From assembly GCA_043718225.1 (NCBI GenBank), contig JAYSWD010000001.1, forward strand, positions 49,092 through 113,091: DNA of 64,000 bases, read 5' to 3'. The translations under genes were made by a program, and so were the position numbers. The DNA is from Candidatus Omnitrophota bacterium (GTDB lineage Bacteria > Omnitrophota > Omnitrophia > Omnitrophales > Aquincolibacteriaceae). This document shows positions 18,563 through 48,564 of the stretch, piece by piece (position 1 is the first letter of the stretch; each line of letters starts with the position of its first letter). The notes beneath the pieces are model-generated. The model worked only from the letters and a program-made list of their open reading frames with translations, did no database searches and was not told where the DNA came from.

Positions 18563-18666
18563 AAAATGCTTGCTCACTGCGTTGCAAACAGCGCTCCCTT
18601 GTGCGACGTATTACCGCATACGCCTCCGCGGTCGCTTGTTTACGCCTTGTGCCCAAGCCTTTTTGA
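18563..18666 (+). repeat. Family B ~105 nt structured terminator-associated repeat (A5...CTGC.TCGTT...CCTTGTGCG...CCTCCGCGG...CGCCTTG...T5GA)
   Basis: Copy after pabB, with the conserved blocks tgcgttgcaaa, cccttgtgcg, gtattaccgcatacgcctccgcgg and cctttttga. Confidence 0.75.
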
Positions 18667-18703
18667 TCAGATTGTGTTATAAAATTATTATTTGGAGAAA
18701 TAA

Positions 18704-19564
18704 GTGAACTTTAAGTGTTATTTAGACGGAAAAGAAATTTTTGATCAGGGATTGATTTGCGCTTTTGACCAAAATGAAATTCCGGTTTTTGAATCACTGC
18801 GTGTTTATAACGGAGTTGTTTTTAGATTCGACGAGCATTTAAAACGCTTTGCCGAATCGTCAAAAGCTTGCGGATTAAATTTACCGCCTTCGGCGGTTTT
18901 GAAAACCGCGGTAGAAAAAGCTTTAAAGGCGCATAATGCGGCTGGCGGATTTATTCGCGTTAATTTCACGGATCAAAAAATTTTCATAATGATCGGGGAG
19001 CGAAAACACAAACCCGAAATTTACCGAACCGGCGTTGATCTTAAAACCTCTTCTTTCCGCATGCCGTCGCCAAGGGCCACCGATTCCCAGTCTAAAACGG
19101 GCAATTACCGTTTGCAGCTTTTAGCAACCAGAAGCGAACCACGAACCACGAGCCACGAACCACGTGGTGGCCAACAGCCACCGTACGAATGGCTTTTCCT
19201 CGATGAAAATCACTTTTTGACTGAATCGCGCGTGGGAAACTTTTTTATCGTAAAAAAAGGGGTGATTTTAACGCCCCCGGCCCGGTCGGTGCTGAATGGA
19301 ATCACTAGGGAAGTTGTGATAGAATGCGCCCGCGAATCGGGGCTTTTGGTGCAGGAAACTCCGCTGACCAGGCATGAAGCTTTCAATGCCGACGAAGCTT
19401 TCCTGACCAATACTTCGTGGGAAATTCTTCCGGTGCGTTCACTCGACGGCCGCGTGGTTCAACAAACGGTTCCCGGCCCGGTGACAAAAAAACTCACACA
19501 ATGTTTTCATAGAAAGGTGAGGGGTCGGAGGCCGACCCACTCATCCCCGCGCTGCGAAGCTTAG
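18704..19564 (+). CDS. pabC: aminodeoxychorismate lyase / class IV aminotransferase, with an in-frame heptanucleotide tandem repeat
   Basis: Class IV aminotransferase fold (ESLRVYNGVVFRFDEHLKRF..NFFIVKKGVILTP). The internal (CGAACCA)x4 repeat encodes PRTTSHEP. Confidence 0.7.
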   Translation: MNFKCYLDGKEIFDQGLICAFDQNEIPVFESLRVYNGVVFRFDEHLKRFAESSKACGLNLPPSAVLKTAVEKALKAHNAAGGFIRVNFTDQKIFIMIGERKHKPEIYRTGVDLKTSSFRMPSPRATDSQSKTGNYRLQLLATRSEPRTTSHEPRGGQQPPYEWLFLDENHFLTESRVGNFFIVKKGVILTPPARSVLNGITREVVIECARESGLLVQETPLTRHEAFNADEAFLTNTSWEILPVRSLDGRVVQQTVPGPVTKKLTQCFHRKVRGRRPTHSSPRCEA

Positions 19565-19679
19565 TCCCCGTGAAAGCGGGGAACGGGGATCTAGAAATGG
19601 ATCCCGGCTCTAGGGCCGGGATGACACTCCTGTTTATAAAAAGTAAAAATTACCGAGAGGTCAGAAAGGTTCAAATTGC

Positions 19680-21311: not shown

Positions 21312-21320
21312 GATTCGATG

Positions 21321-21426
21321 AAAAAACATCATCTGCTTCGTTCCAAACTTCGCAATCTGCGTGCTGCGTATTACCGCATACGCCTCCTTAATTGCTCGTT
21401 TGCGCCTTGCATCTAATGCTTTTTGA
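21321..21426 (+). repeat. Family B repeat
   Basis: Copy after purH: ctgcttcgttccaaa ... gcgtattaccgcatacgcctcc ... tgcgccttgca ... ctttttga. Confidence 0.75.
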
Positions 21427-21444
21427 TCGAATCTTCCACTCGAT

Positions 21445-24095: not shown

Positions 24096-24210
24096 AAATT
24101 CATTGAAAACTTTCCGTCTGCGTTGTTGCGAACTGCGCTTTGTCGTGCGGCGTATTACCGCAGACGCCTCCTCCCGCACTTATTCGCGCCCAGCATCTAG
24201 GGATTTTTGA
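24096..24210 (+). repeat. Family B repeat
   Basis: First of two tandem copies after mnmE: tctgcgttgttgcgaa ... gcggcgtattaccgcagacgcctcc ... atttttga. Confidence 0.7.
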
Positions 24211-24225
24211 ATGAATCGCGAGTGA

Positions 24226-24330
24226 TTCGGCATTATCTGCGGTGTTGCGCCCATCGCTTCTTTACTCGGCGTATTGCCCCGATATGCCTCCGCAGAAGGT
24301 CGAGCGCGCCTTGCCGCTGAACTTTTTTGA
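24226..24330 (+). repeat. Family B repeat
   Basis: Second tandem copy after mnmE: tctgcggtgttgcgc ... ggcgtattgcccc ... cctccgc ... gcgcgccttgcc ... cttttttga. Confidence 0.65.
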
Positions 24331-24411
24331 GAAGAAATTAACAGACGAAGGTTTTCTCAAAAAAAGCCGAAAATCTAAAGTGGATTTTAAAATTAACAAG
24401 CCAAGCAAAGC

Positions 24412-26151
24412 ATGAACTCCGACGAACAAATTACAAAAGACCAGCTGTTTTCACGCATTAAGCAGCGGAAGCAGCTGCTTGTTAAAAGACAAATGGTTGT
24501 GGCGGTGCTAGCCCTTGTTTTTGGCGGCCTGTTTGCAATGAAGGTTTTTGAACCGCTCGAATTTTTTTTCCTGGATAGCTGGCTTTCGCGGGCGCAGTGG
24601 AAAACAGAAACGAGCGTTGTTTTGGTGCCGATTACGGAAAAAAGCATTCAGCTCATCGGTAAATTGCCCTGGCCTCCTTCCCAGTATTCCGCAGTCCTGG
24701 AACTTTTAGCTGCTTGGAATGCGCGTGCTGTTTATATTGACCGTCATTTTGCGGAAAATTGGCCTGCCGAAGAATGGCAGCCGCTTTTAAAAATATTGCT
24801 AAAACGCAAAATCCCTGTTTTTTTTGCTTCCGGTGAATCATCCGGAGGGAAGACGATGAACTATCGAAATCCGCTTTCAGATTCAAAACCAGACACGGTT
24901 GATCTGCCGAAACAAATCAGTAAATATGCATTTTTTGGACACCGGGAATTAATGTCAGGGAAAGATCATGTTTTTCGCTTTTGGCAGCCCTGGATTAAAG
25001 ACAGCCGGGGGTTGACCCATCATTTAGCAGCATTGACCATGCTTATGGATCTCCGTTTTAATTTCAAGGACCGGGCGCTCGTGCGGTCATCAAGAAAAGA
25101 AATGCGGTTAATTCCCTGGAACCGTGTTCGCTTCGAAACTTGGCCACGTGTCGAGTTTTCGGATTTAATGCAAAACTATGTTCCCGCGCGCGACGGAATT
25201 CCTTCGCTGCTACCCACCACTTTATTTAATGACAAAGTTATTTTTATCGGCCAGGTGGATGAACCGCACGCAGGCTCAGGGTTAACGCCATGGAGAGAAG
25301 CCGTTGCTCCGATTGAAACCATGGCTGCAATTTATGACGGCTTGGGACGGCCGGGGTGGAACCTGAGTGTGATGGCGCCTTTTTGGGGATGCATTGTGTT
25401 TTTTATTTTGGTTGCGGGCCTGTTGATTGCATGGGTCGGAGTTTGCGCCGGAATGCGCTTTTGGCTGGGTTGGTTTGGACTGCTTTTTCTCGTGGCTTTG
25501 ACATGGGGCAGTTTTGTATTTTTCAAAACATGGTTTCCTTTTGCCGGGGTATTTTTGTTTTTATTAATTGCGGGTGCGGTTCTTTTTGCTTTTGAATCGA
25601 TTTATGCAGCGGGCGAACGCTCGGCATTATTTCACTTTGCGACGCGCGACGGATTAACAAATATTTATTCCATCCGTCATTTTCGTTTGATAATGAATCA
25701 AGTTACCCGTGAAGCGGCGATGAGATCCGAAGCATTGGCGGTTATTTTAATCGACATCGATTATTTCAAAAAAATCAATGACAGCTACGGCCATGCGGCG
25801 GGAGATAGGGTGATAAAAAAAACGGCGGAAGTGATCGAGGCGTCAATCAGGCAAAAAAGGACCTTTAAAGACGTTGATTTTCTTGCGCGGTATGGTGGTG
25901 AAGAATTTATCATTTTAATGCGCCGATCTTCGCTTGAAAATGCGGGCTTGGTTGCTGAGCGGATTCGAAACGCAATCGGACAAACGCATTTTGAGTGGCA
26001 GCTTAAGCGCGTTTTTGTAACTGTAAGTTTGGGCGTCGCCGTATTACATGAAGGTGAAAATGTTCCCGACCCCATGGTGCATCGAGCCGACAAGGCGCTT
26101 TATCGCGCCAAAGAAGCCGGGCGTAATTGTGTTTGTGTCGAGGAAGTGTAA
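24412..26151 (+). CDS. membrane diguanylate cyclase: CHASE2-like periplasmic sensor, TM bundle and GGDEF domain
   Basis: The N-terminal TM and ~250 aa periplasmic region are followed by three or four TM segments and a GGDEF domain (RYGGEEFIIL). Confidence 0.75.
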   Translation: MNSDEQITKDQLFSRIKQRKQLLVKRQMVVAVLALVFGGLFAMKVFEPLEFFFLDSWLSRAQWKTETSVVLVPITEKSIQLIGKLPWPPSQYSAVLELLAAWNARAVYIDRHFAENWPAEEWQPLLKILLKRKIPVFFASGESSGGKTMNYRNPLSDSKPDTVDLPKQISKYAFFGHRELMSGKDHVFRFWQPWIKDSRGLTHHLAALTMLMDLRFNFKDRALVRSSRKEMRLIPWNRVRFETWPRVEFSDLMQNYVPARDGIPSLLPTTLFNDKVIFIGQVDEPHAGSGLTPWREAVAPIETMAAIYDGLGRPGWNLSVMAPFWGCIVFFILVAGLLIAWVGVCAGMRFWLGWFGLLFLVALTWGSFVFFKTWFPFAGVFLFLLIAGAVLFAFESIYAAGERSALFHFATRDGLTNIYSIRHFRLIMNQVTREAAMRSEALAVILIDIDYFKKINDSYGHAAGDRVIKKTAEVIEASIRQKRTFKDVDFLARYGGEEFIILMRRSSLENAGLVAERIRNAIGQTHFEWQLKRVFVTVSLGVAVLHEGENVPDPMVHRADKALYRAKEAGRNCVCVEEV

Positions 26152-28022: not shown

Positions 28023-28109
28023 GGAGAGGTGGCAGAGTGGTTGAATGCGCTAGTCTCGAAAACTGGTATGCCCGCAAGGGTATCGGGGGTTCGAATCCCC
28101 CCCTCTCCG
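28023..28109 (+). tRNA. tRNA-Ser (anticodon CGA), class II with a long variable arm
   Basis: Acceptor GGAGAGG/CCTCTCC, anticodon loop CTCGAAA, T-arm GGGGGTTCGAATCCCCC, discriminator G. CCA is not encoded. Confidence 0.85.
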
Positions 28110-28230
28110 GTTCTAAATATGCCCTTGCCTGCTGCGTTACGCTCCCTCAAATTTTCTCAACGTACATTTTAAGGTAAGCCTTAAAAATTTTCGGTCGCAA
28201 GCCTTGCATTCAAGGGCATCTTTAGAACCG
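28110..28230 (+). repeat. Family B-like variant directly after tRNA-Ser, enclosed by a 19 bp inverted repeat (ggttctaaatatgcccttg / caagggcatctttagaacc)
   Basis: cctgctgcgttacgctccct ... cgcaagccttgcattca, inside a long stem. Confidence 0.6.
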
Positions 28231-28236
28231 CTAAAT

Positions 28237-28407
28237 GGAGTGGGGATTCGAAGTGAGGAGCCCAAACCATCAAGTTGACCGAAGGAAAAATCTGACTTAA
28301 TGTCAGGTTTTGAAAGAGGGAAGACAAGGGGCGACGAGTGGCCGACCTGGAAAGAGTGCGGCGACTAGCCGACACGAATGGAGGGCGCCGTTAATCCCCC
28401 TCTCTCC
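28237..28407 (+). repeat. Family C ~170 nt tRNA-downstream element whose 3' end near-duplicates the tRNA-Ser T-arm and acceptor 3' half
   Basis: Shares aaatctgacttaatgtcag and agtgcggcgactagccgacacgaatgga with the copy at 34901-35068. It ends aatccccctctctccg, compared with aatcccccctctccg in the tRNA. Confidence 0.6.
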
Positions 28408-28508
28408 GTATCGATTCCGCTAATTGAAATCATGCTTGCTAGAACAGAGTGGCGTTAATTCCCTGGCAGATGCTTTTATTTTATTTGAAGAGGGAACGCT
28501 CTCACGTT

Positions 28509-33130: not shown

Positions 33131-33139
33131 AGACCGCTG

Positions 33140-33245
33140 AAAAAAGTCATTTGCCGCGTTGCAAACCTCGCTTCCTCCCGCGATGTATTACCGAATACAC
33201 CTTGGTCGGGCGCTTGTTTGCGCCTTGCAACTGATCTTTTTTGAT
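33140..33245 (+). repeat. Family B repeat
   Basis: Copy after recR: ttgccgcgttgcaaa ... cttcctcccgcgatgtattaccgaatacacc ... tgcgccttgca ... cttttttga. Confidence 0.75.
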
Positions 33246-33282
33246 CAGTCTTTCCAAAATGAGGTTTTAAAAAGGAGATTTT

Positions 33283-34773: not shown

Positions 34774-34897
34774 CTCGGTTTCTAAAAAGAACCGTCTGCT
34801 GCGTTATCACCTTCGCTCCCTTGTGCGGAGTAATTAGCATTACACCTCCGCGATCGCTCGGCGACGCCTTGCATTCAGGCTCTTTTGAGAAACCGAG
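34774..34897 (+). repeat. Family B repeat directly after tRNA-Gly, enclosed by a 20 bp inverted repeat (ctcggtttctaaaaagaaccg / ggctcttttgagaaaccgag)
   Basis: tctgctgcgttatcaccttcgctcccttgtgcgg ... cacctccgcg ... cgccttgcattca. Confidence 0.7.
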
Positions 34898-34900
34898 CGG

Positions 34901-35068
34901 ATAACGGGGGAATCGAACGGGAGGCGCGATTAGTTTTAATGATTTAGTATGAAAAAATCTGACTTAATGTCAGATTTTTTTGTGATAAATGCGTTATGAG
35001 CGCCGGGAGGCGAGTCGAAGTAAGTGCGGCGACTAGCCGGCACGAATGAAGACCGCTCGATTCCTTGT
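34901..35068 (+). repeat. Family C element downstream of tRNA-Gly
   Basis: Blocks gggggaatcgaac, aaaatctgacttaatgtcagatttttt and agtgcggcgactagccggcacgaatgaag. It ends ..cgattcc. Confidence 0.6.
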
Positions 35069-35151
35069 GTTTTTAATCACTTAAAAAATGATCTAACCCA
35101 TTCATATTAAATGACTTCCAGCTTGAATACAAGGCCTGCCTGAGCCATTCT

Positions 35152-35179
35152 TTGACTTTTGACCTGAAAAACCTATAAT
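35152..35179 (+). promoter_or_regulatory. Sigma70-like promoter of the nusA-infB operon (TTGACT-16-TATAAT)
   Basis: TTGACT at 35152 and TATAAT at 35174. Confidence 0.45.
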
Positions 35180-35246
35180 AACCCCGTTTTGACGCCCGAA
35201 AACTACTAGGGCGAACGCAGTCATTTTAATGTTTTAGATTTTGATA

Positions 35247-35278
35247 AGAAGTGGGCTTTGACCCACTTCTTTTTTTTC
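35247..35278 (+). terminator. Leader hairpin plus T-run between the promoter and nusA (attenuator-like)
   Basis: agaagtgggctttgacccacttcttttttttt: a 9 bp stem followed by T8, 43 nt before the nusA ATG. Confidence 0.5.
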
Positions 35279-35320
35279 CGCTGAAAGTGTTTTGTTCGCT
35301 TTGCGAACCGGGGAGCATGT

Positions 35321-36586: not shown

Positions 36587-36591
36587 TTATT

Positions 36592-38856
36592 ATGCGCGTT
36601 CATGAGCTTGCGAAGCAAATTGATAAAACGAGCAAAGAGATTATCGCTGAATTTGAAAAAATCGGCGTTTCCTTAAAGAGCCATATGTCTGTTATTCCCG
36701 ACGGAGCACTGCATCAATTAGCCTCTGCGTCTGCGACGAAACCGGCGGCAACAGCACCACAGTCCGTTCCAAAAAATGAAGAAGCAAAACAAAAAACAGC
36801 AGCCGGTAAAGCTTCTGCCCCCGCGCCAAAAGCGCAGCCGGCAGCAGCCAAACAAAAAGAAACCCCTAAAAAAGAAATCGCGCCCGCTCCGACGGTTGCC
36901 GCTCCTGTTGTTAAAAAAGAAGAGATAAAGCCCGTGGCGGAAGTAAAAGCGCCTGCGCCCGCAGCCGCTTCCATTGCCGCAGCCGTGCCGAAAGCAGCGT
37001 CTGCGCCGGCACCTGTTCCGTCTCGCTCTGCCTCTGGGCCTGCAGCCCAACCGACAAAAACGCCATATGAACGGCCGCGCGTGGAAGAAGTTCTGCCTCA
37101 AAAAGTGACATTGGCATTCCCGATTACGGTCGGAAATTTTTCTCAAGCCACTGGCCGCAAGGTCGCGGAAATTATTAAAACTCTGATGAAAATCGGCGTT
37201 ATGGCAAATGTGAACCAGCTCCTCAACGAAGAAATCGGAATGGGGCTCGCTTCCGCGTTAAGCATTGAAATTGAAAAAGAACAGGATGAAATCGAAGCTT
37301 TGCTGCGTGACTCGGCTCAGAGCGAAGACCCTACAAAATTAAAATTCCGTCCTCCCGTTGTAACAATGATGGGCCATGTTGATCACGGCAAAACATCACT
37401 TTTAGATGCGATCCGCAAAACGAGCGTCGCTTCCCGTGAAAAAGGATTTATTACGCAGCATATCGGCGCTTATGGCGTAGATGTTCCGGGCAAAGGGCAT
37501 GTGACTTTTCTTGATACACCGGGCCACGAAGCTTTTACCGCCATGCGTGCGCGCGGCGCGAACGTGACGGACATTGTGGTGCTTGTGGTTGCGGCGGATG
37601 ACGGCATTATGCCCCAAACAGTGGAGGCGATCGCGCATGCGCGCGAAGCCGGTTGTCCTATTATCGTCGCGATCAATAAAATTGATTTACCCGCGTCGAA
37701 TCTTGAAAAAGTAATGGGCGGCTTACAGAAAGCTGATTTAACTCCCGAAGAATGGGGCGGAAAAACGATTTGCGTGAAAGTCTCCGCGAAAACCGGTGCC
37801 GGAATCGACGAGCTTTTGGATATGCTTTTGCTGCAAGCGGAAGTTTTGGAATTAAAAGCTAACCCCGACCGTTTTGCAGTGGGAACTATTATTGAAGGCC
37901 ACTTGTCAAAAGGCAGCGGCCCCGCGGCAACCGTGATCGTTCAGAACGGAACTTTGAAAACAGGCGATATTATCGTCGCAGGCCCGAACATGGGCCGCGT
38001 ACGCGCGCTGCGTGATGATTTGGGTAAACATATGAAAGAAGCGGGACCGTCTTATGCCGCGGAAGTCATGGGGCTTGACGGCGTACCCGCCGCGGGCGAA
38101 ATTTTTCACGTTGCGCCGGATGAAAAAATCGCGCGCCGTTTCGCGGAAAAGAAAAGACTCGAATTGCGCGAAAAAGAGATGCATTCGGCCAGCAAACATA
38201 TGTCGCTTGAAAGTGTTTACGAAAAAATTTCCGAAGGTAATTTTAAAGAACTTAAATTAATTGTTAAAGCGGACGTGCAGGGTTCGATCGAAGCTTTGCG
38301 CGACGCTCTCGAGCGCCTTTCAACCGAAATGTGCCGTGTCCATATTATTCACAGCGTTGCCGGCGGCATCAATGAATCCGACGTCATGCTTGCGGCGGCG
38401 AGTGACGCCATCATTATCGGTTTTCATGTGCGCGCGGACGCGAAAGCCAAAGTGCTTGCGGACCGCGAAGGCGTGGATTTACGCTATTATGGAATTATTT
38501 ATGAAGCCGTAGAGAACGTAAAAATGGCCATGGAAGGAATTCTATCACCGACGCTTACGGAAAAAATAGTCGGGACGATTGAAGTTCGCCAGATTTTCAA
38601 ATCTTCAAAAGTAGGCACAATCGGCGGCGCTAAAGTTAAAAAAGGCACGGTCACACGCTCCAATCAAATCCGCGTACTGCGCGACAATGTGGTGTTGTTT
38701 GAAGGTAAGCTGGCATCGCTTAAGCGTTTCAAGGATGACGTTCGTGAGGTCAAAGAAGGCTTCGAATGCGGCGTTGCGGTGGAAGGCTTTAATGATTTGC
38801 AGCCCGGAGATCTTATAGAAGCTTTCCATATTGAAAAAACTGCGACCAAACTTTAA
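36592..38856 (+). CDS. infB: translation initiation factor IF-2
   Basis: Ala/Pro-rich N-terminal region, a G-domain (GHVDHGKTSLLD, DTPGHEAF, NKID) and C-terminal domains. Confidence 0.9.
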   Translation: MRVHELAKQIDKTSKEIIAEFEKIGVSLKSHMSVIPDGALHQLASASATKPAATAPQSVPKNEEAKQKTAAGKASAPAPKAQPAAAKQKETPKKEIAPAPTVAAPVVKKEEIKPVAEVKAPAPAAASIAAAVPKAASAPAPVPSRSASGPAAQPTKTPYERPRVEEVLPQKVTLAFPITVGNFSQATGRKVAEIIKTLMKIGVMANVNQLLNEEIGMGLASALSIEIEKEQDEIEALLRDSAQSEDPTKLKFRPPVVTMMGHVDHGKTSLLDAIRKTSVASREKGFITQHIGAYGVDVPGKGHVTFLDTPGHEAFTAMRARGANVTDIVVLVVAADDGIMPQTVEAIAHAREAGCPIIVAINKIDLPASNLEKVMGGLQKADLTPEEWGGKTICVKVSAKTGAGIDELLDMLLLQAEVLELKANPDRFAVGTIIEGHLSKGSGPAATVIVQNGTLKTGDIIVAGPNMGRVRALRDDLGKHMKEAGPSYAAEVMGLDGVPAAGEIFHVAPDEKIARRFAEKKRLELREKEMHSASKHMSLESVYEKISEGNFKELKLIVKADVQGSIEALRDALERLSTEMCRVHIIHSVAGGINESDVMLAAASDAIIIGFHVRADAKAKVLADREGVDLRYYGIIYEAVENVKMAMEGILSPTLTEKIVGTIEVRQIFKSSKVGTIGGAKVKKGTVTRSNQIRVLRDNVVLFEGKLASLKRFKDDVREVKEGFECGVAVEGFNDLQPGDLIEAFHIEKTATKL

Positions 38857-38957
38857 TTCGCTGAAAAATGTTCATCTGCTTCGTCAGTCGCTTCGCTTCC
38901 TTGTGCGGGTATTGCCGCATACGCCTCCGCGGGCGCTCGCGACTTCCTCGCGTCTAA
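38854..38957 (+). repeat. Family B repeat
   Basis: Copy after infB: atctgcttcgtcag ... cttccttgtgcgggtattgccgcatacgcctccgcggg ... tttttttga. Confidence 0.75.
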
Positions 38958-39002
38958 ATTTTTTTGAGCGAATTTAATATTTTTTGAATTTAGGAATTAT
39001 TT

Positions 39003-40142: not shown

Positions 40143-41132
40143 ATGCGGATTTTTAAGGTAACGGCGTCATTTAAAAAAATTACCAAACGGCCGCTTGTTC
40201 TTGCGCTCGGAAATTTTGACGGTATTCACCGGGGGCATCAAAAGCTTTTAGATTATGTTGTCAGCCAGGCAAAGAAACTGCATGGTTGCGCGGCAGTGTT
40301 TACTTTTCAAGAGCATCCGCAAGCGATTTTGCATCCGGAACATGCGCCCGAAAGCCTGCAAGCGCTTGAGCAAAAACTGGCGCTTTTCCGAGCGCGCGGA
40401 ATCGAGATTTCTTTTTTACAGAATTTTGATTCGCGTTTTTCGATGCTTTCGGCGGAAGAGTTTGTAAAAAAAATTCTTGTTAAGCAGCTTGGCATTCGCG
40501 AGATTTGCCTCGGTTATAACGCGCGTTTTGGCCGCGGGCGGGAAGGCGATGCAGATCTTCTCCGTAAGCTGGGCAAAGAATGCGGTTTTAAGGTTTTTCA
40601 GGCGCGGCCTGTCGCTTGGCGGGGAGTGCCGGTTTCAAGTACGGCGGTCAGAAAAGCCGTACATGCGGGGAAAATGAACCTCGCGGCGCAATTATTGGGG
40701 CGGCCGTGGAGCGTAGCGGGTATCATCAAGCGCGGAAGTGCGCGCGGGGAAAAACTGGGGTTTGCTACGGCGAACATGGATTTAAATAAATATGCACGCC
40801 CGGCTTTTGGAGTTTATGCCGTCCATGTGCTGCTACATAATATTGCCTCTGCGCCTAAGGCGCAACCGGCGCAGCGTCGTTCAGCCTCTGGGCTCACCCA
40901 ACCGGCATTTTGCAACGGTGTGGCGAATTTTGGATTGAGGCCTACTTTTGGAGGAACGGTAAAGCCTGTTTTGGAAACCCATCTTTTTAATTTTAAGAAA
41001 AACATTTACGGAAAAAAAATAGAAGTATTTTTTGTGAAGCGCCTGAGAAATGAAAAAAAATTTACCTCCAAAGAAGAGCTCGCGAAACAAATTCAAAAAG
41101 ATATTCGTGCCGCGAAGGTCGCGTTGAAATAA
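40143..41132 (+). CDS. ribF: bifunctional riboflavin kinase / FMN adenylyltransferase, with a ~20 aa in-frame insertion made of two Family A repeats
   Basis: N-terminal FMNAT (GNFDGIHRGHQ) and C-terminal riboflavin kinase (GVYAV..GVANFGLRPTF). The insertion ASAPKAQPAQRRSASGLTQPA sits in a loop that is absent from E. coli RibF. Confidence 0.85.
   Translation: MRIFKVTASFKKITKRPLVLALGNFDGIHRGHQKLLDYVVSQAKKLHGCAAVFTFQEHPQAILHPEHAPESLQALEQKLALFRARGIEISFLQNFDSRFSMLSAEEFVKKILVKQLGIREICLGYNARFGRGREGDADLLRKLGKECGFKVFQARPVAWRGVPVSSTAVRKAVHAGKMNLAAQLLGRPWSVAGIIKRGSARGEKLGFATANMDLNKYARPAFGVYAVHVLLHNIASAPKAQPAQRRSASGLTQPAFCNGVANFGLRPTFGGTVKPVLETHLFNFKKNIYGKKIEVFFVKRLRNEKKFTSKEELAKQIQKDIRAAKVALK
40846..40870 (+). 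repeat. Family A repeat, in-frame inside ribF
   Basis: gcctctgcgcctaaggcgcaaccggc. Confidence 0.75.
40884..40906 (+). repeat. Family A repeat, in-frame inside ribF
   Basis: gcctctgggctcacccaaccggc. Confidence 0.75.
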
Positions 41133-43000: not shown

Positions 43001-43016
43001 GCACTGTTTTGTTTTT

Positions 43017-43039
43017 GCTCTGCGTTGAATACAACCGCA
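43017..43039 (+). repeat. Family A degenerate copy in the rpsO-pnp spacer
   Basis: gctctgcgttgaatacaaccgc. Confidence 0.55.
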
Positions 43040-43089: not shown

Positions 43090-45279
43090 ATGTTGAACCC
43101 TAAGCAAGTGTCTTTCAATCTCGGCGGACGCGAATATATTCTTGAAACAGGTAAAGTTGCCCGTCAGGCCAGCGGGTCAGTGCTCGTAAAATGTGGCGAC
43201 AGCGTTGTGCTTGTCGCGGTTGTCGGCGCTCCGGAATCGGAAACTCCACGCGATTTTTTTCCTTTAACCGTGGATTTTCGTGAACGCGCTTATGCCGCAG
43301 GCCGTTTTCCGGGCGGATATTTCAAGCGTGAAGGCAAAGCATCCGAGCGCGAAGTTTTAGTTTCGCGTTTGATTGACCGCCCGATCCGCGCGCTTTTCCC
43401 TAAGAATTACCGCAGCGAAGTCAGCGTTTCGATCATGGTGCTTTCATCTGATCCCGATGCACAGACCGATATCATGGCGATGATCGGAGCTTCGGCTGCG
43501 ATTCACATCTCAGACATTCCTTTTGCCGAACCGATGGGTTCGGTGCGTGTCGGACTCATTGACGGTAACTTTGTCATTAATCCATCCGCCGCGGAACTTG
43601 AAACCAGCGATTTGGATCTTGTTATGGCCGGCACTAAAAATGCCGTCGGCATGCTTGAAGCGGGCGCAAATGAAATTTCCGAAGAAAAAGTTTTCGAAGC
43701 GATTCAATTCGGCCATAAAGCCATTCAGGAAGTTATTGCCGCGCAGCAAAAACTTTTTGACTTGGTGAAACCGATTAAGCGTGTTGTTAAAGGCGTTCAG
43801 ATCAACGAAGAATACGTGAATAAAATCACCGAAAGCCTCGGCTCTGAATTTAAGAATGTTTTCGGCAAGAAAACAAAAGTTGAGCAGGATGCAGTTTTAG
43901 GCGCGATTAAAGAAAAAGCGCTCGCGCTTTTTGACACTACAAGCGCCGATTTTAAGAAAGCCGATTTCATCGAAGCTTTCGCTAAAGTTGAAAAGAAAAA
44001 AGTCCGCGAAGGATATATTAAGGACAACAAGCGCGTCGACGGCCGCGGTTTCTACGATATTCGCCAAATTGTATGCGAAGTCGGAATGCTGCCCCGCACA
44101 CACGGTTCCTCGCTTTTTACACGCGGTCAAACGCAGAGTTTGGGCGTTGCGACGCTTGGCACAGGCCAGGACGAGCAGACGGTTGATTTGCTGCATGGGC
44201 CGACTTCCAAGAGTTTCCTTTTGCATTACAACTTTCCTTCATTTAGCGTGAATGAATCCAAGCCGGATCGCGGGCCGGGCCGCCGCGAAGTAGGGCATGG
44301 CGCATTGGCAGAACGGGCTTTATCGCCTGTGATTCCTTCGCCTGAAGATTTTCCGTACACCATTCGCGTTGTTTCCGATATTTTGGAATCAAACGGTTCA
44401 AGTTCAATGGCGAGTGTTTGCGCCGGAACTTTGGCTTTGATGGATGCAGGCGTACCGATTAAGTCGCCAGTTTCCGGAATCGCGATGGGCCTTGTTACCG
44501 ACGGCGATGAATTCCGTGTATTAACGGACATTGCCGGTATCGAAGACCATCTGGGCGATATGGATTTCAAAGCCGCCGGAACAATCAACGGTCTTACGGC
44601 AATTCAAATGGATTTGAAGCTTTCGGGAATCAGTGAAAAAATTCTCAAAACAGCTTTTGATGATTCGAAAAAAGCGCGCCTCACGATCATGAAACTTTTG
44701 ACGGATTGCATCTCTGAGCCGAAAAAAGAAGTTTCCGAATTCGCTCCGCGTATTACGACCATCCAGGTTGATCCCGAGAAAATCGGCGAAATCATCGGCC
44801 CTGGCGGAAAGAATATCCGTAAGCTTGTCGAAGAAACCGGCGCCAAGATTGATATTTCCGATGACGGCAGCATCAATATTTCCGCGGTTAATAAAACCAG
44901 CGTCGATGCCGCAATCGCCAAAATTCAATCGATTACCGAAGAACCCGAAGTCGGCAAAACCTATGACGCGGAAGTGAAGAAGCTGACATCGTTCGGCGCA
45001 TTCTGCGAAATTATTCCGGGCAAAGACGGATTGTTGCACGTTTCTGAAATGGCCGACGGCTTTGTGAAAAGCCCCGGTGATTATTTGAAAGTGGGCGACA
45101 AAGTTACCGTTCAGGTTGTCGGTGTTGATGACCGCGGCAAAGTTTCTTTGAGTGTGAAAGCGATTAATCCTGCGGGACTTCCGCTTTTGCCTGAAAGCGA
45201 ACGCGTTATGATCGAAGCTGAAGCTCCGCGCGGTGACCGCGGCGGACGCGGCGGCGGTTTTCGCGGCGGTAGACGCTGA
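43090..45279 (+). CDS. pnp: polyribonucleotide nucleotidyltransferase (PNPase)
   Basis: Two RNase PH domains, a KH and an S1 domain, and an RGG-rich C-terminus, downstream of rpsO. Confidence 0.9.
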   Translation: MLNPKQVSFNLGGREYILETGKVARQASGSVLVKCGDSVVLVAVVGAPESETPRDFFPLTVDFRERAYAAGRFPGGYFKREGKASEREVLVSRLIDRPIRALFPKNYRSEVSVSIMVLSSDPDAQTDIMAMIGASAAIHISDIPFAEPMGSVRVGLIDGNFVINPSAAELETSDLDLVMAGTKNAVGMLEAGANEISEEKVFEAIQFGHKAIQEVIAAQQKLFDLVKPIKRVVKGVQINEEYVNKITESLGSEFKNVFGKKTKVEQDAVLGAIKEKALALFDTTSADFKKADFIEAFAKVEKKKVREGYIKDNKRVDGRGFYDIRQIVCEVGMLPRTHGSSLFTRGQTQSLGVATLGTGQDEQTVDLLHGPTSKSFLLHYNFPSFSVNESKPDRGPGRREVGHGALAERALSPVIPSPEDFPYTIRVVSDILESNGSSSMASVCAGTLALMDAGVPIKSPVSGIAMGLVTDGDEFRVLTDIAGIEDHLGDMDFKAAGTINGLTAIQMDLKLSGISEKILKTAFDDSKKARLTIMKLLTDCISEPKKEVSEFAPRITTIQVDPEKIGEIIGPGGKNIRKLVEETGAKIDISDDGSINISAVNKTSVDAAIAKIQSITEEPEVGKTYDAEVKKLTSFGAFCEIIPGKDGLLHVSEMADGFVKSPGDYLKVGDKVTVQVVGVDDRGKVSLSVKAINPAGLPLLPESERVMIEAEAPRGDRGGRGGGFRGGRR

Positions 45280-45287
45280 TTCGTTTT

Positions 45288-45310
45288 GCCTCTGCGCAAA
45301 GCGCAACCGA
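45288..45310 (+). repeat. Family A repeat
   Basis: gcctctgcgcaaagcgcaaccga. Confidence 0.75.
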
Positions 45311-45326
45311 CGACAATTATATTTTT

Positions 45327-45358
45327 GCTCTGAGCTGCGCTCAACCGCGGCTCAGAGC
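45327..45358 (+). repeat. Family A repeat with a head-to-head partial inverted copy
   Basis: gctctgagctgcgctcaaccgcggctcagagc. Confidence 0.8.
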
Positions 45359-45390
45359 AAACTTTTTTTAGGGAAACTGTTTTTATTTAG

Positions 45391-45412
45391 TTCTGGGCTT
45401 CGCCCAACCACA
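45391..45412 (+). repeat. Family A repeat
   Basis: ttctgggcttcgcccaaccaca. Confidence 0.7.
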
Positions 45413-45423
45413 GGAAGAGAAAT

Positions 45424-45870: not shown

Positions 45871-45963
45871 GCAAGTTTCTGCGCATAATAAACTGCGTTT
45901 AGTGCTTAGGAATTTCAAGCATCTTTCCGATAATATGAGAGCTCTATCTCAATTGTTGTTTTG

Positions 45964-45989
45964 GTTCTGCGCTTTTGGCGCAACCACGG
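45964..45989 (+). repeat. Family A repeat
   Basis: gttctgcgcttttggcgcaaccacgg. Confidence 0.7.
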
Positions 45990-46022
45990 TAAAATTTCTA
46001 AAATAACTTTATATTGGCTTAA

Positions 46023-46046: not shown

Positions 46047-46056
46047 AAAAAATATC

Positions 46057-48450
46057 ATGCGAAAAGAACGAATCAATGAAATCTGGGGCGTGTTTTTTTT
46101 GCTGTTGGGCCTTTTTGCTCTTTGCAGTCTGATCGGTTTCAACCGGCTTGATATTCCTTTTTATACCTCGCATCCGAATAATCCCGTCAAAAATTACACG
46201 GGCATTATCGGAGCCTACACTTCGTTCGGACTTTATCTCAGTTTTGGCTGGAGCGCATTTGTTGTTCCTATTCTTTTTTTAATTTGGGCTTGGAGTTTTC
46301 TTAAGCAGCGTGTTCCGGATAAACGTTTTTTAAAATTTCTCGGCCTTTTCGCGGCGATAGCGGCGAGCGCCACTCTTTTTTCGGTTTTAGCTTCCGACGA
46401 AAATCGTATTACCGCGGGCGGCTGCCTCGGGCATGTGACGGCAACTTATCTGCTGAAATATTTCGGATTTGCGGGAAGTCTGATCGTTTCTTTTTGCACA
46501 TTGATGCTCGCGCTTATTTTAGCGACGGACTATCTGCTTTTCCCGCTTATTGAAGCGGTGGCACAGCTTGCCGCTCATGCGCTTATGGGTGTGTGGCCTT
46601 ATTTTTCGCGCGCCGGCGAAGCTTTTGCGGGCATTTTTTCTTTTTTGAGTAAAACCGATGAACGCCCGAAGAAAAGCCGCGAGCCGCATGTCAAAGCTGA
46701 AAAAGAAAAGCCCCTGCCCGGCCGGCAGGCAGGCAAGAAAGAAACGGAAGTACCAAGGCCCGCTTTGGACGCAAAAATTCTCAACCAGCCGATTAAAGTA
46801 AAAGCTTACCGTCCGGAAGCCGGTGCCGAAGAATTAAAACAGAAAGAAATGTTAGCTGCCGCGGAAACAGCGAGATCCGCGAGTAAGCCCGCCATTCTCA
46901 AAGCAAAATTAGACCAGCCTAAAGCCGAGGCTCCTGTGTCCGAAGATTCTTTTAAAGGCGTGATCGGATCCGCGGCAAAGAAAAAATATGTTCTGCCGCC
47001 GCCGAGCCTTTTAACACGCCCGCCCGCGGCGAAAGCTTCGAATGATAATCTCGAAGCGAATTCAAAAATTATTGAGCAAACCTTGTCTGAGTTCGGCATC
47101 GAGGTGAAGGTCACCGAAGTTGAGCAGGGCCCCGTCATCACCCGTTATGAACTCTTGCCCGCGCCCGGTGTGAAGCTGAATTCAATTTCCAATCTCGCGG
47201 ACAACCTGGCTTTGGCGCTAAAAGCGTCGAGCGTGCGCATGATTATTCCGATTCCGGGTAAATCGGCGGTGGGGATTGAAATTCCGAACTCCGTAACCAA
47301 CATGGTTTATTTGCGCGAGCTTGTGGAAACGCCCGAATTTAATGCCGGCAAGCATCCGCTGCCGCTTATCTTAGGCAAAGACACAAGCGGACGGCCTTTG
47401 CTATCCGATTTAAGCGGAATGCCGCATATGCTGGTTGCGGGAACCACGGGCAGCGGAAAAACAGTTTGCGTGAACGCGATTATCGGCGGCTTGCTTTTTT
47501 CAAAAACACCCGATGAGCTTAAATTTGTGATGGTTGATCCGAAGATGGTGGAAATGGCGGTTTACAATAAAATTCCGCATATGTTGACGCCGGTTGTGAC
47601 TGATGTCAGAAAAGCCGCGCACGCGATCAATTGGGTGGTGCAAGAAATGGAAAAGAGATACCGGCTTTTATCGACTGTCGGCGTAAGAAACATCAGCGCG
47701 TTCAACGCGCGCGTGATCAGCGAAGAAGATCAGCTGCAGCTTGATATCGCGGACGCGAAGACTTCAGAAAATCTTATTCCGGCAAAGCTGCCTTACATTG
47801 TGGTGATCATCGACGAGCTTGCGGATTTGATGATGACGATGCGTGATAAAGTCGAAGGACCGATTTGCCGCCTGGCGCAGCTTTCGCGTGCGGTCGGGAT
47901 TCATTTGATTCTCGCCACACAGCGCCCGTCGGTGGATGTTATCACGGGTGTAATCAAGGCGAATTTTCCGGCGCGTATTTCATTTAAGGTTTCTTCCAAA
48001 GTGGATTCACGCACGGTTTTGGACGGAAATGGCGCGGATCAACTGCTCGGCAAAGGTGACCTGTTGTTTTTAAAGCCGGGAGAAGCGAAGTTAATTCGCG
48101 GCCAGGCGCCGTTTGTTTCGGATGAAGAAATACGTGACGTTGTCGACTACTGGGCAAAGCAGGGCAATCCGGAATTTCTTCAGGAATTAATCGCGCCGGT
48201 TGAAAAAAAAGCGGGCGAGGGCAGCGGTGAAAAAGATGAGCTTTACGACGAAGCCCTGCGGGTAGTCGTCGAAACGCGAGTTGCTTCCACATCCAATCTG
48301 CAGCGCCGCATGGGGCTTGGCTATACGCGCGCCGCGCGAATTATGGACCAGCTTGAATCTCAGGGCGTAATAGGCCCTTCGCAGGGCGCCAAAGCGCGCG
48401 AAGTCTATATGCCCAATCCCAATGCCGAAACTCCTGCCACCACCGAATAA
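46057..48450 (+). CDS. ftsK: DNA translocase FtsK
   Basis: N-terminal TM segments, a Pro/Ala/Lys-rich linker, a motor domain (GTTGSGKT Walker A) and a gamma winged-helix C-terminus. I chose the start at 46057 (MRKERINEIW). Confidence 0.85.
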   Translation: MRKERINEIWGVFFLLLGLFALCSLIGFNRLDIPFYTSHPNNPVKNYTGIIGAYTSFGLYLSFGWSAFVVPILFLIWAWSFLKQRVPDKRFLKFLGLFAAIAASATLFSVLASDENRITAGGCLGHVTATYLLKYFGFAGSLIVSFCTLMLALILATDYLLFPLIEAVAQLAAHALMGVWPYFSRAGEAFAGIFSFLSKTDERPKKSREPHVKAEKEKPLPGRQAGKKETEVPRPALDAKILNQPIKVKAYRPEAGAEELKQKEMLAAAETARSASKPAILKAKLDQPKAEAPVSEDSFKGVIGSAAKKKYVLPPPSLLTRPPAAKASNDNLEANSKIIEQTLSEFGIEVKVTEVEQGPVITRYELLPAPGVKLNSISNLADNLALALKASSVRMIIPIPGKSAVGIEIPNSVTNMVYLRELVETPEFNAGKHPLPLILGKDTSGRPLLSDLSGMPHMLVAGTTGSGKTVCVNAIIGGLLFSKTPDELKFVMVDPKMVEMAVYNKIPHMLTPVVTDVRKAAHAINWVVQEMEKRYRLLSTVGVRNISAFNARVISEEDQLQLDIADAKTSENLIPAKLPYIVVIIDELADLMMTMRDKVEGPICRLAQLSRAVGIHLILATQRPSVDVITGVIKANFPARISFKVSSKVDSRTVLDGNGADQLLGKGDLLFLKPGEAKLIRGQAPFVSDEEIRDVVDYWAKQGNPEFLQELIAPVEKKAGEGSGEKDELYDEALRVVVETRVASTSNLQRRMGLGYTRAARIMDQLESQGVIGPSQGAKAREVYMPNPNAETPATTE
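46713..46733. repeat. Family E-like GC palindrome inside the ftsK linker
   Basis: cctgcccggccggcaggcagg, encoding LPGRQAGK. Confidence 0.4.
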
Positions 48451-48456
48451 ACCATT

Positions 48457-48564
48457 GAAAAAGGGCTTCTGCGTCGTTGCAAAAATCTCACTTCCTTGTG
48501 CGGCGCACGTTTCTAGTACGCCTCCGCGGGCGTTCGTTGGCGCCTTGCATAACCACCTTTTTGA
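48457..48564 (+). repeat. Family B repeat
   Basis: Copy after ftsK: ttctgcgtcgttgcaaaa ... cttccttgtgcgg ... tacgcctccgcggg ... gcgccttgca ... cctttttga. Confidence 0.75.

What the first reader, a model, noticed from the sequence alone, without database searches (positions are those of the whole stretch)
18563..48564. A ~105 nt GC-rich structured repeat (Family B) behind nine + strand genes, always in the same orientation and ending in a T-run
Copies follow pabB, purH, mnmE (two in tandem), tRNA-Ser, recR, tRNA-Gly, infB and ftsK. All share ordered blocks: A5, (T)CTGC.TCGTTGCAAA, CYTCCTTGTGCGG, GTATTRCCGCATACGCCTCCGCGG, GCGCCTTGCA and CTTTTTGA. Several copies are enclosed in an additional outer stem that pairs the A-run with the T-run. 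The strict orientation relative to transcription and the terminal U-tract suggest a complex intrinsic terminator that has been propagated as a repeat. A small ncRNA family made at 3' UTRs is the alternative. None occur in the mixed-strand last 13 kb.
Basis: seen in the sequence. Interest (0 to 1): 0.75.

Follow-up and report, generated by a model that had tools for sequence, protein, structure and literature searches.

The report
Stop-codon-anchored hairpin repeat of Omnitrophota
A previously undescribed ~125-base repeat that folds into one long hairpin has been inserted exactly at the 3' end of many housekeeping genes and tRNAs in a small group of uncultured Omnitrophota bacteria; it resembles the REP and TRIT gene-end palindromes of other bacteria more than a normal transcription terminator.

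Summary
The repeat is real, and it is larger and more regular than described. The unit is about 121-125 nt. It forms one rod-like hairpin whose outer arms lie beyond the A-run and the T-run. A covariance model finds 10 copies in the window. It also finds about 27 more copies in related Candidatus Omnitrophota MAGs and metagenome contigs, and none elsewhere.

Base pairing is kept by massive compensatory change: 92% of cells are paired, against 32-49% in slid controls. A ~45-nt apical core, the A/T runs and a tandem G.A loop stay constant in sequence.

Thirty-three of 37 copies start within -10 to +5 nt of the upstream gene's stop codon, or at a tRNA 3' end, in sense orientation. Syntenic relatives show empty sites, so the element was inserted.

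It is not a canonical terminator:
- The T-run is paired inside the stem.
- The helix next to the T-run is weak.
- Many copies lie 6-32 nt before the next start codon inside conserved operons such as infB|rbfA and pabB|pabC.

Wobble pairs are not favoured, so the sequence gives no sign of selection on the sense RNA.

Best reading: a new REP/TRIT-like gene-end palindromic element, once mobile, acting as a 3'-end or intercistronic hairpin or leaky attenuator. Its function is inferred, not shown.

The parts
2313..2432 (-). Family B copy c10, full length and inverted relative to both flanking + strand genes (coaE ends 2292, rho starts 2462).
   Evidence: Covariance model R1: 105.1 bits, E=1.8e-23; sequence read; flanking genes from Pfam.
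18553..18673 (+). Copy c1 after pabB. The pabB stop codon TGA (18557-18559) lies inside the outer left arm. The stem extends to 18550-18676.
   Evidence: 121.4 bits; MFE rod, z=-5.2; ORF end.
18553..18560 (+). c1 outer left arm AATCTGAT, which pairs with 18666-18673 (ATCAGATT). In the family this arm varies between copies but stays complementary.
   Evidence: family pair counts for columns 1-9 with 125-132.
18561..18566 (+). c1 'GAAAAA': the G.A internal-loop residues plus the A-run. The three central A:U pairs are nearly invariant in the family.
   Evidence: Pairs 12:122, 13:121 and 14:120 are A:U in 28-30 of 30 copies; coordinates.
18594..18631 (+). c1 conserved apical core (CTCCCTTGTGCGA / CGTATTACCGCATACG / CCTCCGCGG). 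It comprises a 7-bp apical hairpin plus conserved asymmetric internal loops.
   Evidence: Alignments A4 and A7; the apical stem covaries, U:A to G:C in a subfamily (column 66:74).
18659..18666 (+). c1 'CTTTTTGA': the T-run, paired to the A-run, plus the second G.A loop residues.
   Evidence: T-run lengths of mostly 4-6 nt across copies.
21312..21433 (+). Copy c2 after purH (stop ends at 21311), 12 nt before the next gene, a Mur-ligase/folC-like gene starting at 21445.
   Evidence: 118.2 bits.
24097..24217 (+). Copy c3 after mnmE (stop ends at 24095).
   Evidence: 101.9 bits; the orthologous site in L027 is empty, with a 64-nt spacer.
24233..24330 (+). Copy c4, in tandem with c3. It is 5'-truncated, with no outer left arm and no A-run.
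   Evidence: 35.9 bits, model positions 18-104; nhmmer 24232-24335.
28108..28230 (+). Copy c5, a member of the divergent tRNA-linked subfamily. It starts at the last bases of tRNA-Ser (28023-28109).
   Evidence: 83.6 bits; MFE rod, z=-6.3; nearest relatives are L027:11641 and L031:3978.
33131..33251 (+). Copy c6 after recR (stop ends at 33130), 32 nt before a DUF4919 gene.
   Evidence: 105.9 bits. The same site in relatives is empty (L024, L037, L033) or holds unrelated hairpins.
34776..34895 (+). Copy c7, 2 nt after tRNA-Gly (34703-34774). The stem extends into the tRNA 3' end (34772-34899).
   Evidence: 111.3 bits. The orthologous site is filled in L031 and L027, and holds a simple A-run/hairpin/T-run in L030.
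38855..38974 (+). Copy c8 between infB (stop ends at 38856) and rbfA (starts 39003).
   Evidence: 117.3 bits. The orthologous junction is filled in L030, empty in L024 (23-nt spacer), and holds another repeat in L031.
48449..48571 (+). Copy c9 after ftsK (stop ends at 48450). The next + strand gene is 592 nt away.
   Evidence: 93 bits; Pfam FtsK.

Best explanation
Family B is a lineage-specific dispersed palindromic element of about 121-125 nt. It is of the same general kind as REP/REPIN, mycobacterial TRIT and ERIC/Correia elements, and is confined to a small subclade of Candidatus Omnitrophota.

Shown:
- Each copy is one long imperfect hairpin. Its pairing is maintained by compensatory change.
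- An apical ~45-nt core, an A4-6/T4-6 pair of runs in fixed orientation and a tandem G.A internal loop are conserved in sequence.
- Copies were inserted, because empty orthologous sites exist, precisely at the 3' boundary of genes (a stop codon or a tRNA 3' end). About 90% are in the sense orientation.
- Copies are old and diverged, with no recent burst, yet they remain recognisable where the flanking non-coding DNA has randomised.

Inferred:
- The element is co-transcribed with the upstream gene.
- It acts as a very stable 3'-end or intercistronic RNA hairpin: a barrier to 3'-to-5' exonucleases and at most a leaky, possibly bidirectional, terminator or attenuator.
- In this way it would partition expression between neighbouring genes without abolishing read-through.
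- The conserved core and loops would serve as a binding site for a protein, either a host factor or the enzyme that once mobilised the element.

How it reached stop codons so precisely is not explained.
For: Structure:
- Single-sequence folds give the same rod in 7 of 9 copies, with z-scores from -3 to -6.
- In 31 copies, 91.9% of cells are paired against 32-49% when partners are slid. There are 226 double-change cells against 21-43, and 0 of 500 shuffles reach the observed values.
- An independent MAFFT/RNAalifold run recovers the inner helices.

Anchoring:
- 28 of 37 copies follow a CDS whose stop codon ends -10 to +5 nt from the element start; 22 of them are within -2 to +1.
- 5 follow tRNA or tRNA-like 3' ends.
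- The distance to the next gene ranges from 6 to 592 nt, so genome compaction alone does not explain the anchoring.

Insertion:
- infB|rbfA, recR and mnmE junctions are empty in syntenic relatives, with identical C-termini and stop codons.

Maintenance:
- Mean pairwise identity is 65%, with no clustering by genome or locus.
- Orthologous filled sites (infB|rbfA in the window and L030; purH|folC in the window and L027; tRNA-Gly in the window, L031 and L027) keep the element although the adjoining spacers no longer align.

Niche:
- In sister genomes the same post-stop positions hold other hairpins, namely GC hairpins and an AT-rich rod-like repeat.

Analogy:
- TRIT is a conserved palindromic motif narrowly placed around the stop codon (PMC3152330).
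- REPs lie downstream of ORFs and can supply the stop codon (PMC3733652).
- REPIN hairpins show compensatory changes (PMC3116915).
Against: - There are no expression data, so transcription, 3' ends and any effect on stability are all inferred.
- Wobble pairs are not enriched. Outside two columns with a conserved U.G, there are 18 G.U against 40 A.C among 1131 cells.
- The antisense strand folds better than the sense strand in 23 of 30 copies (p=0.0015). The pairing constraint therefore looks strand-symmetric (DNA-like) rather than specific to a sense RNA.
- The covarying outer stem lies beyond the T-run, which neither a stabiliser nor a terminator role requires.
- Three copies, representing two independent cases, are not in the sense/after-gene configuration.
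- No partner protein was identified.
Confidence: 0.45

Rival explanations
1. Purely selfish, non-autonomous mobile DNA (REPIN/PATE-like). The hairpin forms in single-stranded DNA and is the substrate of an unidentified transposase. The conserved apex and loops are its binding site, and orientation and position reflect the insertion mechanism. There is no host function.
For: - Pairing is almost purely Watson-Crick and strand-symmetric.
- The outer stem lies beyond the T-run.
- Presence/absence varies among close relatives, and several unrelated hairpin repeat families colonise the same sites.
- The sense strand of the element is always the strand with positive GC skew, which is the lagging-strand template for co-oriented genes.
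- Some variants carry extra hairpins inserted at one internal position.
Against: - There are no near-identical copies. The best identity between non-orthologous copies that are not re-sampled from the same organism is about 82-84% (L005, L014:185 and L019 reach 86-96% and were not resolved), and the mean is 65%.
- The termini are the least conserved part, and there are no target-site duplications.
- No transposase lies in the window, and no half-elements flank an ORF in about 0.5 Mb.
- Old copies are kept where neutral DNA has randomised, in otherwise compact genomes.
- No sequence motif is shared by the targets (TAA, TGA, TAG, tRNA ends) that would explain the precise anchoring.
Confidence: 0.25
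2. Efficient Rho-independent terminator propagated as a repeat. The rod is the terminator hairpin and the T-run is the U-tract where transcripts end.
For: - The position is directly behind genes and behind two tRNA genes.
- The A-run and T-run are conserved in fixed orientation while neighbouring pairs covary freely.
- In L030 a simple A-run/hairpin/T-run occupies the site where the window has copy c7.
- The palindromic design could act in both directions, as proposed for TRIT.
Against: - The U-tract is paired, the stem continues beyond it, and the adjacent helix is weak.
- None of the seven copies in the scanned 17-36 kb stretch is called by a terminator scan that does find the nusA-leader terminator.
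- At least 13 copies lie 6-32 nt before the next start codon, inside operons that are contiguous in relatives.
- No conserved promoter lies in the 3' half of the element.
- By analogy, TRIT sites overlap few mapped 3' ends in M. tuberculosis.
Confidence: 0.1
3. RNA processing or translational-coupling device. In read-through polycistronic RNA, the closed rod brings the upstream stop codon next to the downstream ribosome-binding site. It is either opened by the terminating ribosome or cut by a double-strand-specific RNase, as Correia/NEMIS elements are by RNase III.
For: - The left arm lies within a ribosome footprint of the stop codon in most copies.
- The right arm is 6-32 nt from the next start codon in many.
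- A long, nearly perfect Watson-Crick helix with conserved internal loops fits a dsRNA-specific enzyme.
Against: - Copies behind tRNAs, at convergent gene ends and hundreds of nt from the next gene have no downstream cistron to couple.
- The inverted copies are not explained.
- The idea was not tested in any way.
Confidence: 0.1
4. A family of small regulatory RNAs derived from 3' UTRs, with the conserved core acting as a seed.
For: The position is in a 3' UTR. The A-rich 5' and U-rich 3' flanks resemble Hfq- or ProQ-type ligands (inference only).
Against: - The conserved core is mostly base-paired within the rod.
- Dozens to hundreds of copies with one seed would be unusual.
- There is no Rfam relative.
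- There is no strand-specific wobble signal.
Confidence: 0.04

Closest known systems
TRIT (Tuberculosis Rho-independent terminator motif; Gardner et al. 2011, RNIE paper, PMC3152330)
   Same: A conserved, palindromic, multi-copy motif (147 copies) tied to gene termini. Its distribution around the stop codon is very narrow, about -8, overlapping the end of the CDS. [quoted passage not shown]
   Different: TRIT is restricted to Mycobacterium, and there is no sequence or model match here. TRIT is largely bidirectional, whereas Family B is about 90% sense-oriented, is longer, and has a conserved apex with a variable base. Whether TRIT terminates is doubtful: there is minimal overlap with mapped 3' ends.
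REP / REPIN elements with RAYT transposases
   Same: Extragenic palindromes, mostly downstream of ORFs, that sometimes supply the stop codon (PMC3733652). They are long hairpins with common compensatory changes, persist for long periods, and are vertically inherited (PMC3116915).
   Different: Family B has no terminal GTAG or CGTC tag. REPINs have highly conserved ends and a variable middle, and Family B is the reverse. REP stems often show G.T pairs, whereas Family B does not favour them. No RAYT was found, though this was not searched genome-wide.
ERIC and Correia/NEMIS elements (about 100-155-bp imperfect palindromes of Enterobacteria and Neisseria)
   Same: Similar size. They are co-transcribed intergenic hairpins inside operons or UTRs, reported to affect mRNA processing, stability and termination (from established knowledge, not tested here).
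   Different: Those elements have conserved terminal inverted repeats and TA target duplications and occur in both orientations. Family B has variable termini, no target duplication, a strong orientation bias and stop-codon anchoring.
Canonical (bidirectional) intrinsic terminators
   Same: The A-run, hairpin, T-run layout, and the position behind genes and tRNAs.
   Different: The hairpin is about 95 nt long and is weak next to the T-run. An extra covarying stem lies beyond the T-run. Many copies sit inside operons just before the next start codon.

Membership tests
Canonical Rho-independent terminator | A compact G+C-rich stem (about 5-14 bp, loop 3-8 nt) ending 0-2 nt before the U-tract | tested here: not met
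   The terminator scan of 17-36 kb calls none of the seven Family B copies there, though it finds the nusA-leader terminator at 35246-35271. The pairs nearest the T-run (17:117, 18:116) are Watson-Crick in only 16/29 and 13/29 copies.
Canonical Rho-independent terminator | A single-stranded U-tract at the 3' end of the element | tested here: not met
   The T4-6 run pairs with the A-run (A:U in 28-30 of 30 copies). It is followed by a G.A loop and a covarying 9-11 bp outer arm.
Canonical Rho-independent terminator | Location at the ends of transcription units | tested here: not met
   At least 13 copies lie 6-32 nt upstream of the next co-oriented start codon. These include infB|rbfA, pabB|pabC and purH|folC, junctions that are uninterrupted in relatives.
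Canonical Rho-independent terminator | Transcript 3' ends map to the U-tract | not testable with these tools
   No transcriptome data are available.
REP (GTAG / CGTC superfamilies) | A short stem-loop tagged at one end by an unpaired GTAG or CGTC | tested here: not met
   No such tag lies at either terminus in 31 aligned copies. GTAG occurs only inside the apical stem of one subfamily.
REPIN | Two inverted, highly conserved REP ends separated by a less conserved spacer | tested here: not met
   The pattern is the opposite: the termini are the most variable part and the apex the most conserved.
REPIN | A cognate single-copy RAYT (Y1 transposase) gene flanked by the repeats | not tested
   No transposase was found among the 40 window ORFs scanned with Pfam. 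The rest of the genome is not available.
REPIN | A long hairpin with compensatory changes, located extragenically | tested here: met
MITE | Conserved terminal inverted repeats plus direct target-site duplications | tested here: not met
   The flanks are complementary, extending the stem by 1.2 bp on average against 0.47 in shuffles. They are not direct repeats, and the termini are variable.
MITE | A related autonomous IS with the same ends | tested here: inconclusive
   nhmmer found no half-elements flanking an ORF in about 0.5 Mb of held sequence. No complete genome was available.
Integron attC site | R''/R' core sites (RYYYAAC ... GTTRRRY) at the ends, next to mobile cassettes and an integrase | tested here: not met
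   No such cores appear in the aligned outer arms, judged by eye and not by a motif scan. The flanking genes are housekeeping genes in conserved synteny.
TRIT | A match to the mycobacterial TRIT motif; restricted to Mycobacterium | tested here: not met
   Different phylum. No Rfam family is matched at gathering or E<=10 thresholds. Only the positional behaviour is shared.
Any Rfam 15 family | A covariance-model match | tested here: not met

The most novel reading that the evidence does not exclude
Family B, together with the unrelated hairpin repeats that occupy the same positions in sister genomes, could represent a new type of bacterial mobile element. It would integrate as a hairpin precisely at the 3' boundary of gene products, meaning stop codons and mature tRNA 3' ends. 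It would use a targeting mechanism that reads the end of a gene rather than a DNA sequence motif, for example through RNA 3' ends or terminating ribosomes. Alternatively, it could be the recognition signal of a lineage-specific, protein-dependent 3'-end formation system.
Probability: 0.15. Interest if true: 0.8.

Novelty: new variant of a known kind. Interest (0 to 1): 0.55.

Why it matters
Omnitrophota are an almost wholly uncultured phylum, and nothing is known about how their transcripts end or how repeats spread in their compact genomes. This element gives a clean, statistically overwhelming example of a conserved nucleic-acid structure. Its position rule is extremely sharp: it sits at the stop codon or at a tRNA 3' end.

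If it acts on RNA, it is a lineage-specific device for setting expression ratios inside operons. If it acts on DNA, its gene-end targeting is unexplained by known transposition mechanisms.

It also offers an independent parallel to mycobacterial TRIT and to REPs that abut stop codons. That parallel suggests a general but unexplained association between palindromic repeats and stop codons. The covariance model can be used directly to annotate these genomes and to avoid spurious ORF calls across the repeats.

Tried and rejected
1. Outer stem as an inverted duplication of the target. Rejected: identical or near-identical arms recur at unrelated loci (AATTTATTG in L010 and L011; AGACCGCTG in window c6 and L004).
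2. Direct target-site duplications. None were found; the flanks only extend the stem.
3. Insertion into the loop of a pre-existing terminator hairpin. Rejected: the empty infB|rbfA site in L024 has no hairpin, the arms are related within the family, and the A/T runs lie inside the outer arms, not outside them.
4. A hybrid promoter using the TTGA of the conserved TTTTTGA as a -35 box. It fits only c1 and is inconsistent at c2, c6 and c8 on reading the sequence.
5. Protein coding. The spurious ORF 2193-2723(-) 'matches' other copies only through the repeat, and 1-nt indels between copies exclude a reading frame.
6. Wobble and strand-energy tests to show a sense-strand RNA. They gave no sense-strand signal, and if anything the reverse. 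Several of the C:A mismatches recur in one column, so the events are not independent, and I do not read this as evidence for an antisense RNA.
7. Separating transcription from replication orientation by local GC skew. The two are confounded: the sense strand of the element always has positive skew, as do coding strands.
8. A search for a master element or for half-elements around an ORF. None were found.
9. Searches of viral contigs, plasmids and phages. No match.
10. Three metagenome pattern hits (L017, L020, L023) were chance matches inside coding sequence.
11. A plain MAFFT alignment of 31 copies mis-registers the outer arms by 1 nt, so RNAalifold drops them. The outer stem rests on single-sequence folds, direct reading and the model-based alignment.
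12. Literature searches for Omnitrophota repeats or structured RNAs returned nothing relevant.

Full report
**Observation**

A repeat search and direct reading confirm nine + strand copies between 18.5 and 48.6 kb. They follow pabB, purH, mnmE (two in tandem), tRNA-Ser, recR, tRNA-Gly, infB and ftsK. Gene identities were checked with Pfam and ARAGORN.

Each copy folds on its own into one long imperfect hairpin. Seven of the nine have z-scores of -3 to -6 against dinucleotide shuffles. The unit is larger than described. The A-run and T-run are paired to each other and are enclosed by a further 9-11 bp stem in every full copy.

A covariance model built from eight copies recovers all nine. It also finds a tenth full copy (105 bits) on the minus strand at 2313-2432, between coaE and rho, both of which are + strand genes. 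The element is not GC-rich: 44-52% GC against 47% for the window.

**Distribution**

- No Rfam family matches at gathering or permissive thresholds.
- An exact-pattern scan of one genome per GTDB species found the apical motif only in three Candidatus Omnitrophota MAGs.
- A metagenome scan found nine more contigs that carry the element and three chance hits inside genes.
- Viral contigs, plasmids and phages gave nothing.
- More distant Omnitrophota with the same gene order lack the element.
- Literature searches found no description.

**Structure**

On 31 copies aligned to the model, 91.9% of pair cells are standard pairs, against 32-49% when partners are slid by 1-3 columns. Thirty-three of 41 pairs show double changes. 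There are 226 such cells against 21-43 in the slid controls, and no shuffle out of 500 reaches the observed values.

This alignment is fitted to the model. However, single-sequence folds, an independent MAFFT/RNAalifold run for the inner helices and plain reading of the arms all agree with it. Pairing extends 1.2 bp beyond the model ends on average, against 0.47 for mismatched flanks (p<0.0005).

The following do not covary but are conserved in sequence:
- a ~45-nt apical core;
- three A:U pairs of the A-run/T-run, in fixed orientation;
- a symmetric G.A/G.A internal loop (TGAAAA...TTTTGA);
- two U.G positions.

**Position**

Of 37 distinct copies:
- 28 follow a CDS whose stop codon ends -10 to +5 nt from the element start, 22 of them within -2 to +1;
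- in six, the stop codon ends 7-10 nt inside the element's left arm; four of these use the stop at the arm/A-run junction (TGA, or TAA in L007);
- five follow tRNA or tRNA-like 3' ends;
- one is cut by the end of its contig.

The distance to the next gene ranges from 6 to 592 nt. The anchoring is therefore one-sided and is not a by-product of short spacers.

There are two independent exceptions. One is the inverted window copy upstream of rho. The other is a copy in a divergent intergenic region abutting the ribosome-binding site of a minus-strand gene; it is conserved at 92% identity between two genomes.

**Insertion history**

Contigs encoding RecR proteins 81-93% identical to the window's give syntenic loci.

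| Junction | Filled with Family B | Empty | Other content |
|---|---|---|---|
| infB\|rbfA | window, L030 | L024 (23-nt spacer, same C-terminus and stop codon) | L031: unrelated AT-rich rod-like repeat |
| recR 3' end | window | L024, L037, L033 | L030, L031: GC hairpins; L035, L036, L038, L039: the AT-rich repeat; L027: 105-nt spacer with no Family B hit, not characterised |
| purH\|folC | window, L027 | | |
| mnmE 3' end | window (two copies) | L027 | |
| tRNA-Gly 3' end | window, L031, L027 | | L030: short A-run/hairpin/T-run |

The element was therefore inserted precisely after intact stop codons, and several hairpin families compete for the same niche.

Copies cluster neither by genome nor by locus. 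Mean identity is 65% and the best non-orthologous pairs reach about 82-84% (apart from L005/L014:185/L019, at 86-96%, which may be the same organism re-sampled). Orthologous filled sites have different outer arms that are still complementary, while the neighbouring spacers no longer align. The copies are old and constrained, and did not arise in a recent burst.

**Is it a terminator?**

For:
- its position behind genes and tRNAs;
- the fixed A-run/T-run;
- the simple terminator-like hairpin at the orthologous tRNA-Gly site in L030.

Against:
- The T-run is paired and followed by a covarying arm that a terminated RNA would lack.
- The helix next to the T-run is the weakest.
- A terminator scan calls none of the seven copies in the 17-36 kb stretch it covered, but finds a textbook terminator and a near-consensus promoter in the nusA leader. 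This organism therefore uses ordinary signals.
- At least 13 copies lie 6-32 nt before the next start codon, in junctions that are contiguous operons in relatives. The 3' half of the element holds no conserved promoter.

Efficient termination is therefore unlikely. Leaky termination cannot be excluded.

**RNA or DNA?**

Outside the two conserved U.G columns there are 1035 Watson-Crick cells, 18 G.U, 40 A.C and 38 other cells. The antisense strand folds better than the sense strand in 23 of 30 copies (mean 3.5 kcal/mol, p=0.0015). A structure selected only in the sense RNA should favour G.U over A.C, and this one does not.

Part of the A.C excess comes from recurrent mismatches in one column, so I treat the result only as absence of a sense-RNA signature. 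The conserved non-canonical features (U.G, tandem G.A) are stabilising only on the sense strand, whether RNA or DNA. Local GC skew cannot separate gene orientation from replication orientation.

**Comparison with known elements**

The closest behaviour is that of mycobacterial TRIT. It is a conserved palindromic motif with 147 copies and a very narrow distribution around the stop codon, for which a binding factor was proposed (PMC3152330). Later Term-seq found little overlap between TRIT and mapped 3' ends.

REPs also lie mainly downstream of ORFs and can supply the stop codon (PMC3733652). REPIN hairpins show compensatory changes (PMC3116915).

Family B fails the defining tests of each class:
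- no GTAG or CGTC tag;
- a conserved apex with variable ends, the reverse of a REPIN;
- no conserved terminal repeats or target duplications, so not a MITE;
- no attC core sites and no cassette context;
- not a compact hairpin with a free U-tract.

It is therefore a new variant of the gene-end palindromic repeat kind, not a member of a described family.

**Verdict**

The terminator interpretation is only partly supported.

I commit, at 0.45, to this reading: a once-mobile, now maintained, co-transcribed 3'-end or intercistronic hairpin that protects or attenuates rather than terminates, with a conserved protein-binding core. A purely selfish ssDNA-hairpin element is the main rival, at 0.25. 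How the element is placed so exactly at stop codons and tRNA ends is unexplained, and is the most interesting open point.

Noticed in passing
window 4140-4173, 4664-4697, 5943-6017, 8063-8096, 8411-8443, 9141-9174, 9686-9719, 13906, 36547-37059, 40841-40874, 43007-43039, 45279-45412, 45959-45992, 54522-54554, 57684: A second, short hairpin repeat ('Family A'): T-rich lead, then GCTCTG-N-GC, a 3-6 nt loop, then GC-N'-CAACCGC. N and N' covary (CTGCGC/GCGCAA, CTGAGC/GCTCAA, CTGGGC/GCCCAA). There are about 16 copies on the + strand and a few on the minus strand. Many sit 5-25 nt after stop codons, for example after rpsO, pnp (three in a row) and ferrochelatase. This looks like another gene-end hairpin family in the same genome.
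   Followed up: partly
L031:7762-7925, L035:863-987, L036:667-803, L038:2704-2842, L039:764-902: An unrelated AT-rich repeat of about 140-165 nt (…CTAAATCCTAAATAAATTC … GAATTTAGATATTAGGATTTAG…). It also folds as a rod and also starts directly after stop codons (infB in L031; recR in four sister genomes), at sites where the window carries Family B.
   Followed up: partly
window 34896-35075 and 28231-28410; L031:3800-3977; L027:11762-11935; L030:5460-5650: A conserved ~170-nt module follows tRNA-Gly and tRNA-Ser, downstream of the Family B copy where there is one. It starts with an inverted copy of that tRNA's T-arm (GGGAATCGAAC for Gly, GGGGATTCGAA for Ser). It contains a hairpin flanked by A and T runs (CTGACTTAATGTCAG) and the block GCGGCGACTAGCCGRCRCGAATGRAG. 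In L027 and L031 it ends in a direct copy of the tRNA 3' end (…GATTCCCTCTACCCGCTCCA), which is followed by another Family B copy. There is no Rfam match. It could be an unknown ncRNA or the scar of tRNA-targeted integration.
   Followed up: partly
L024:9568-9638 versus window 34703-34774; L027:5863-5951 versus window 28023-28109: tRNA-Gly(UCC) in L024 and tRNA-Ser(CGA) in L027/L028 are inverted relative to the same genes in the window, although the flanking protein genes are collinear. These look like small local inversions, perhaps between the inverted tRNA-arm copies noted above.
   Followed up: no
window 35152-35179 and 35246-35279: The nusA leader has a near-consensus sigma-70 promoter (TTGACT-16-TATAAT). 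It is followed by a textbook terminator or attenuator (AAGAAGTGGGC TTTG ACCCACTTCTT plus T8). The terminator is conserved in L030 and L031. This shows that the organism uses ordinary signals.
   Followed up: partly
L007:1436-1586, L027:1199-1352 (same as L028:352-505), L022:3921-4126: Family B variants carry an extra 30-87 nt hairpin inserted at the same internal position, between the CGC and TTCC blocks. This site tolerates or attracts insertions.
   Followed up: partly
window 18607-18617 and the equivalent position in most copies: The apical segment CGTATTACCGC is the exact complement of GCGGTAATACG, the universally conserved 530-loop region of 16S rRNA. That rRNA sequence is recalled from memory and was not checked against this organism's rRNA. 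The subfamily with a GTAGGTTTTTAC apex lacks the complementarity, so it is probably coincidence.
   Followed up: no
window 24412-26151 and 26185-27960: Two tandem paralogous CHASE2-GGDEF diguanylate cyclase genes, about 73% identical in DNA. Relatives L024 and L027 have one copy.
   Followed up: no
window 48841-48926 and 48929-49014: An 86-nt tandem duplication (74% identity) lies in the long spacer between copy c9 and the response-regulator gene. Each unit contains a small hairpin.
   Followed up: no
window 2193-2723 (-) and 48187-48868 (-): Long minus-strand ORFs run across Family B copies. One 'matches' other loci in tblastn only through the repeat. These are spurious ORFs of the kind that automatic annotation of these genomes is likely to call.
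   Followed up: yes
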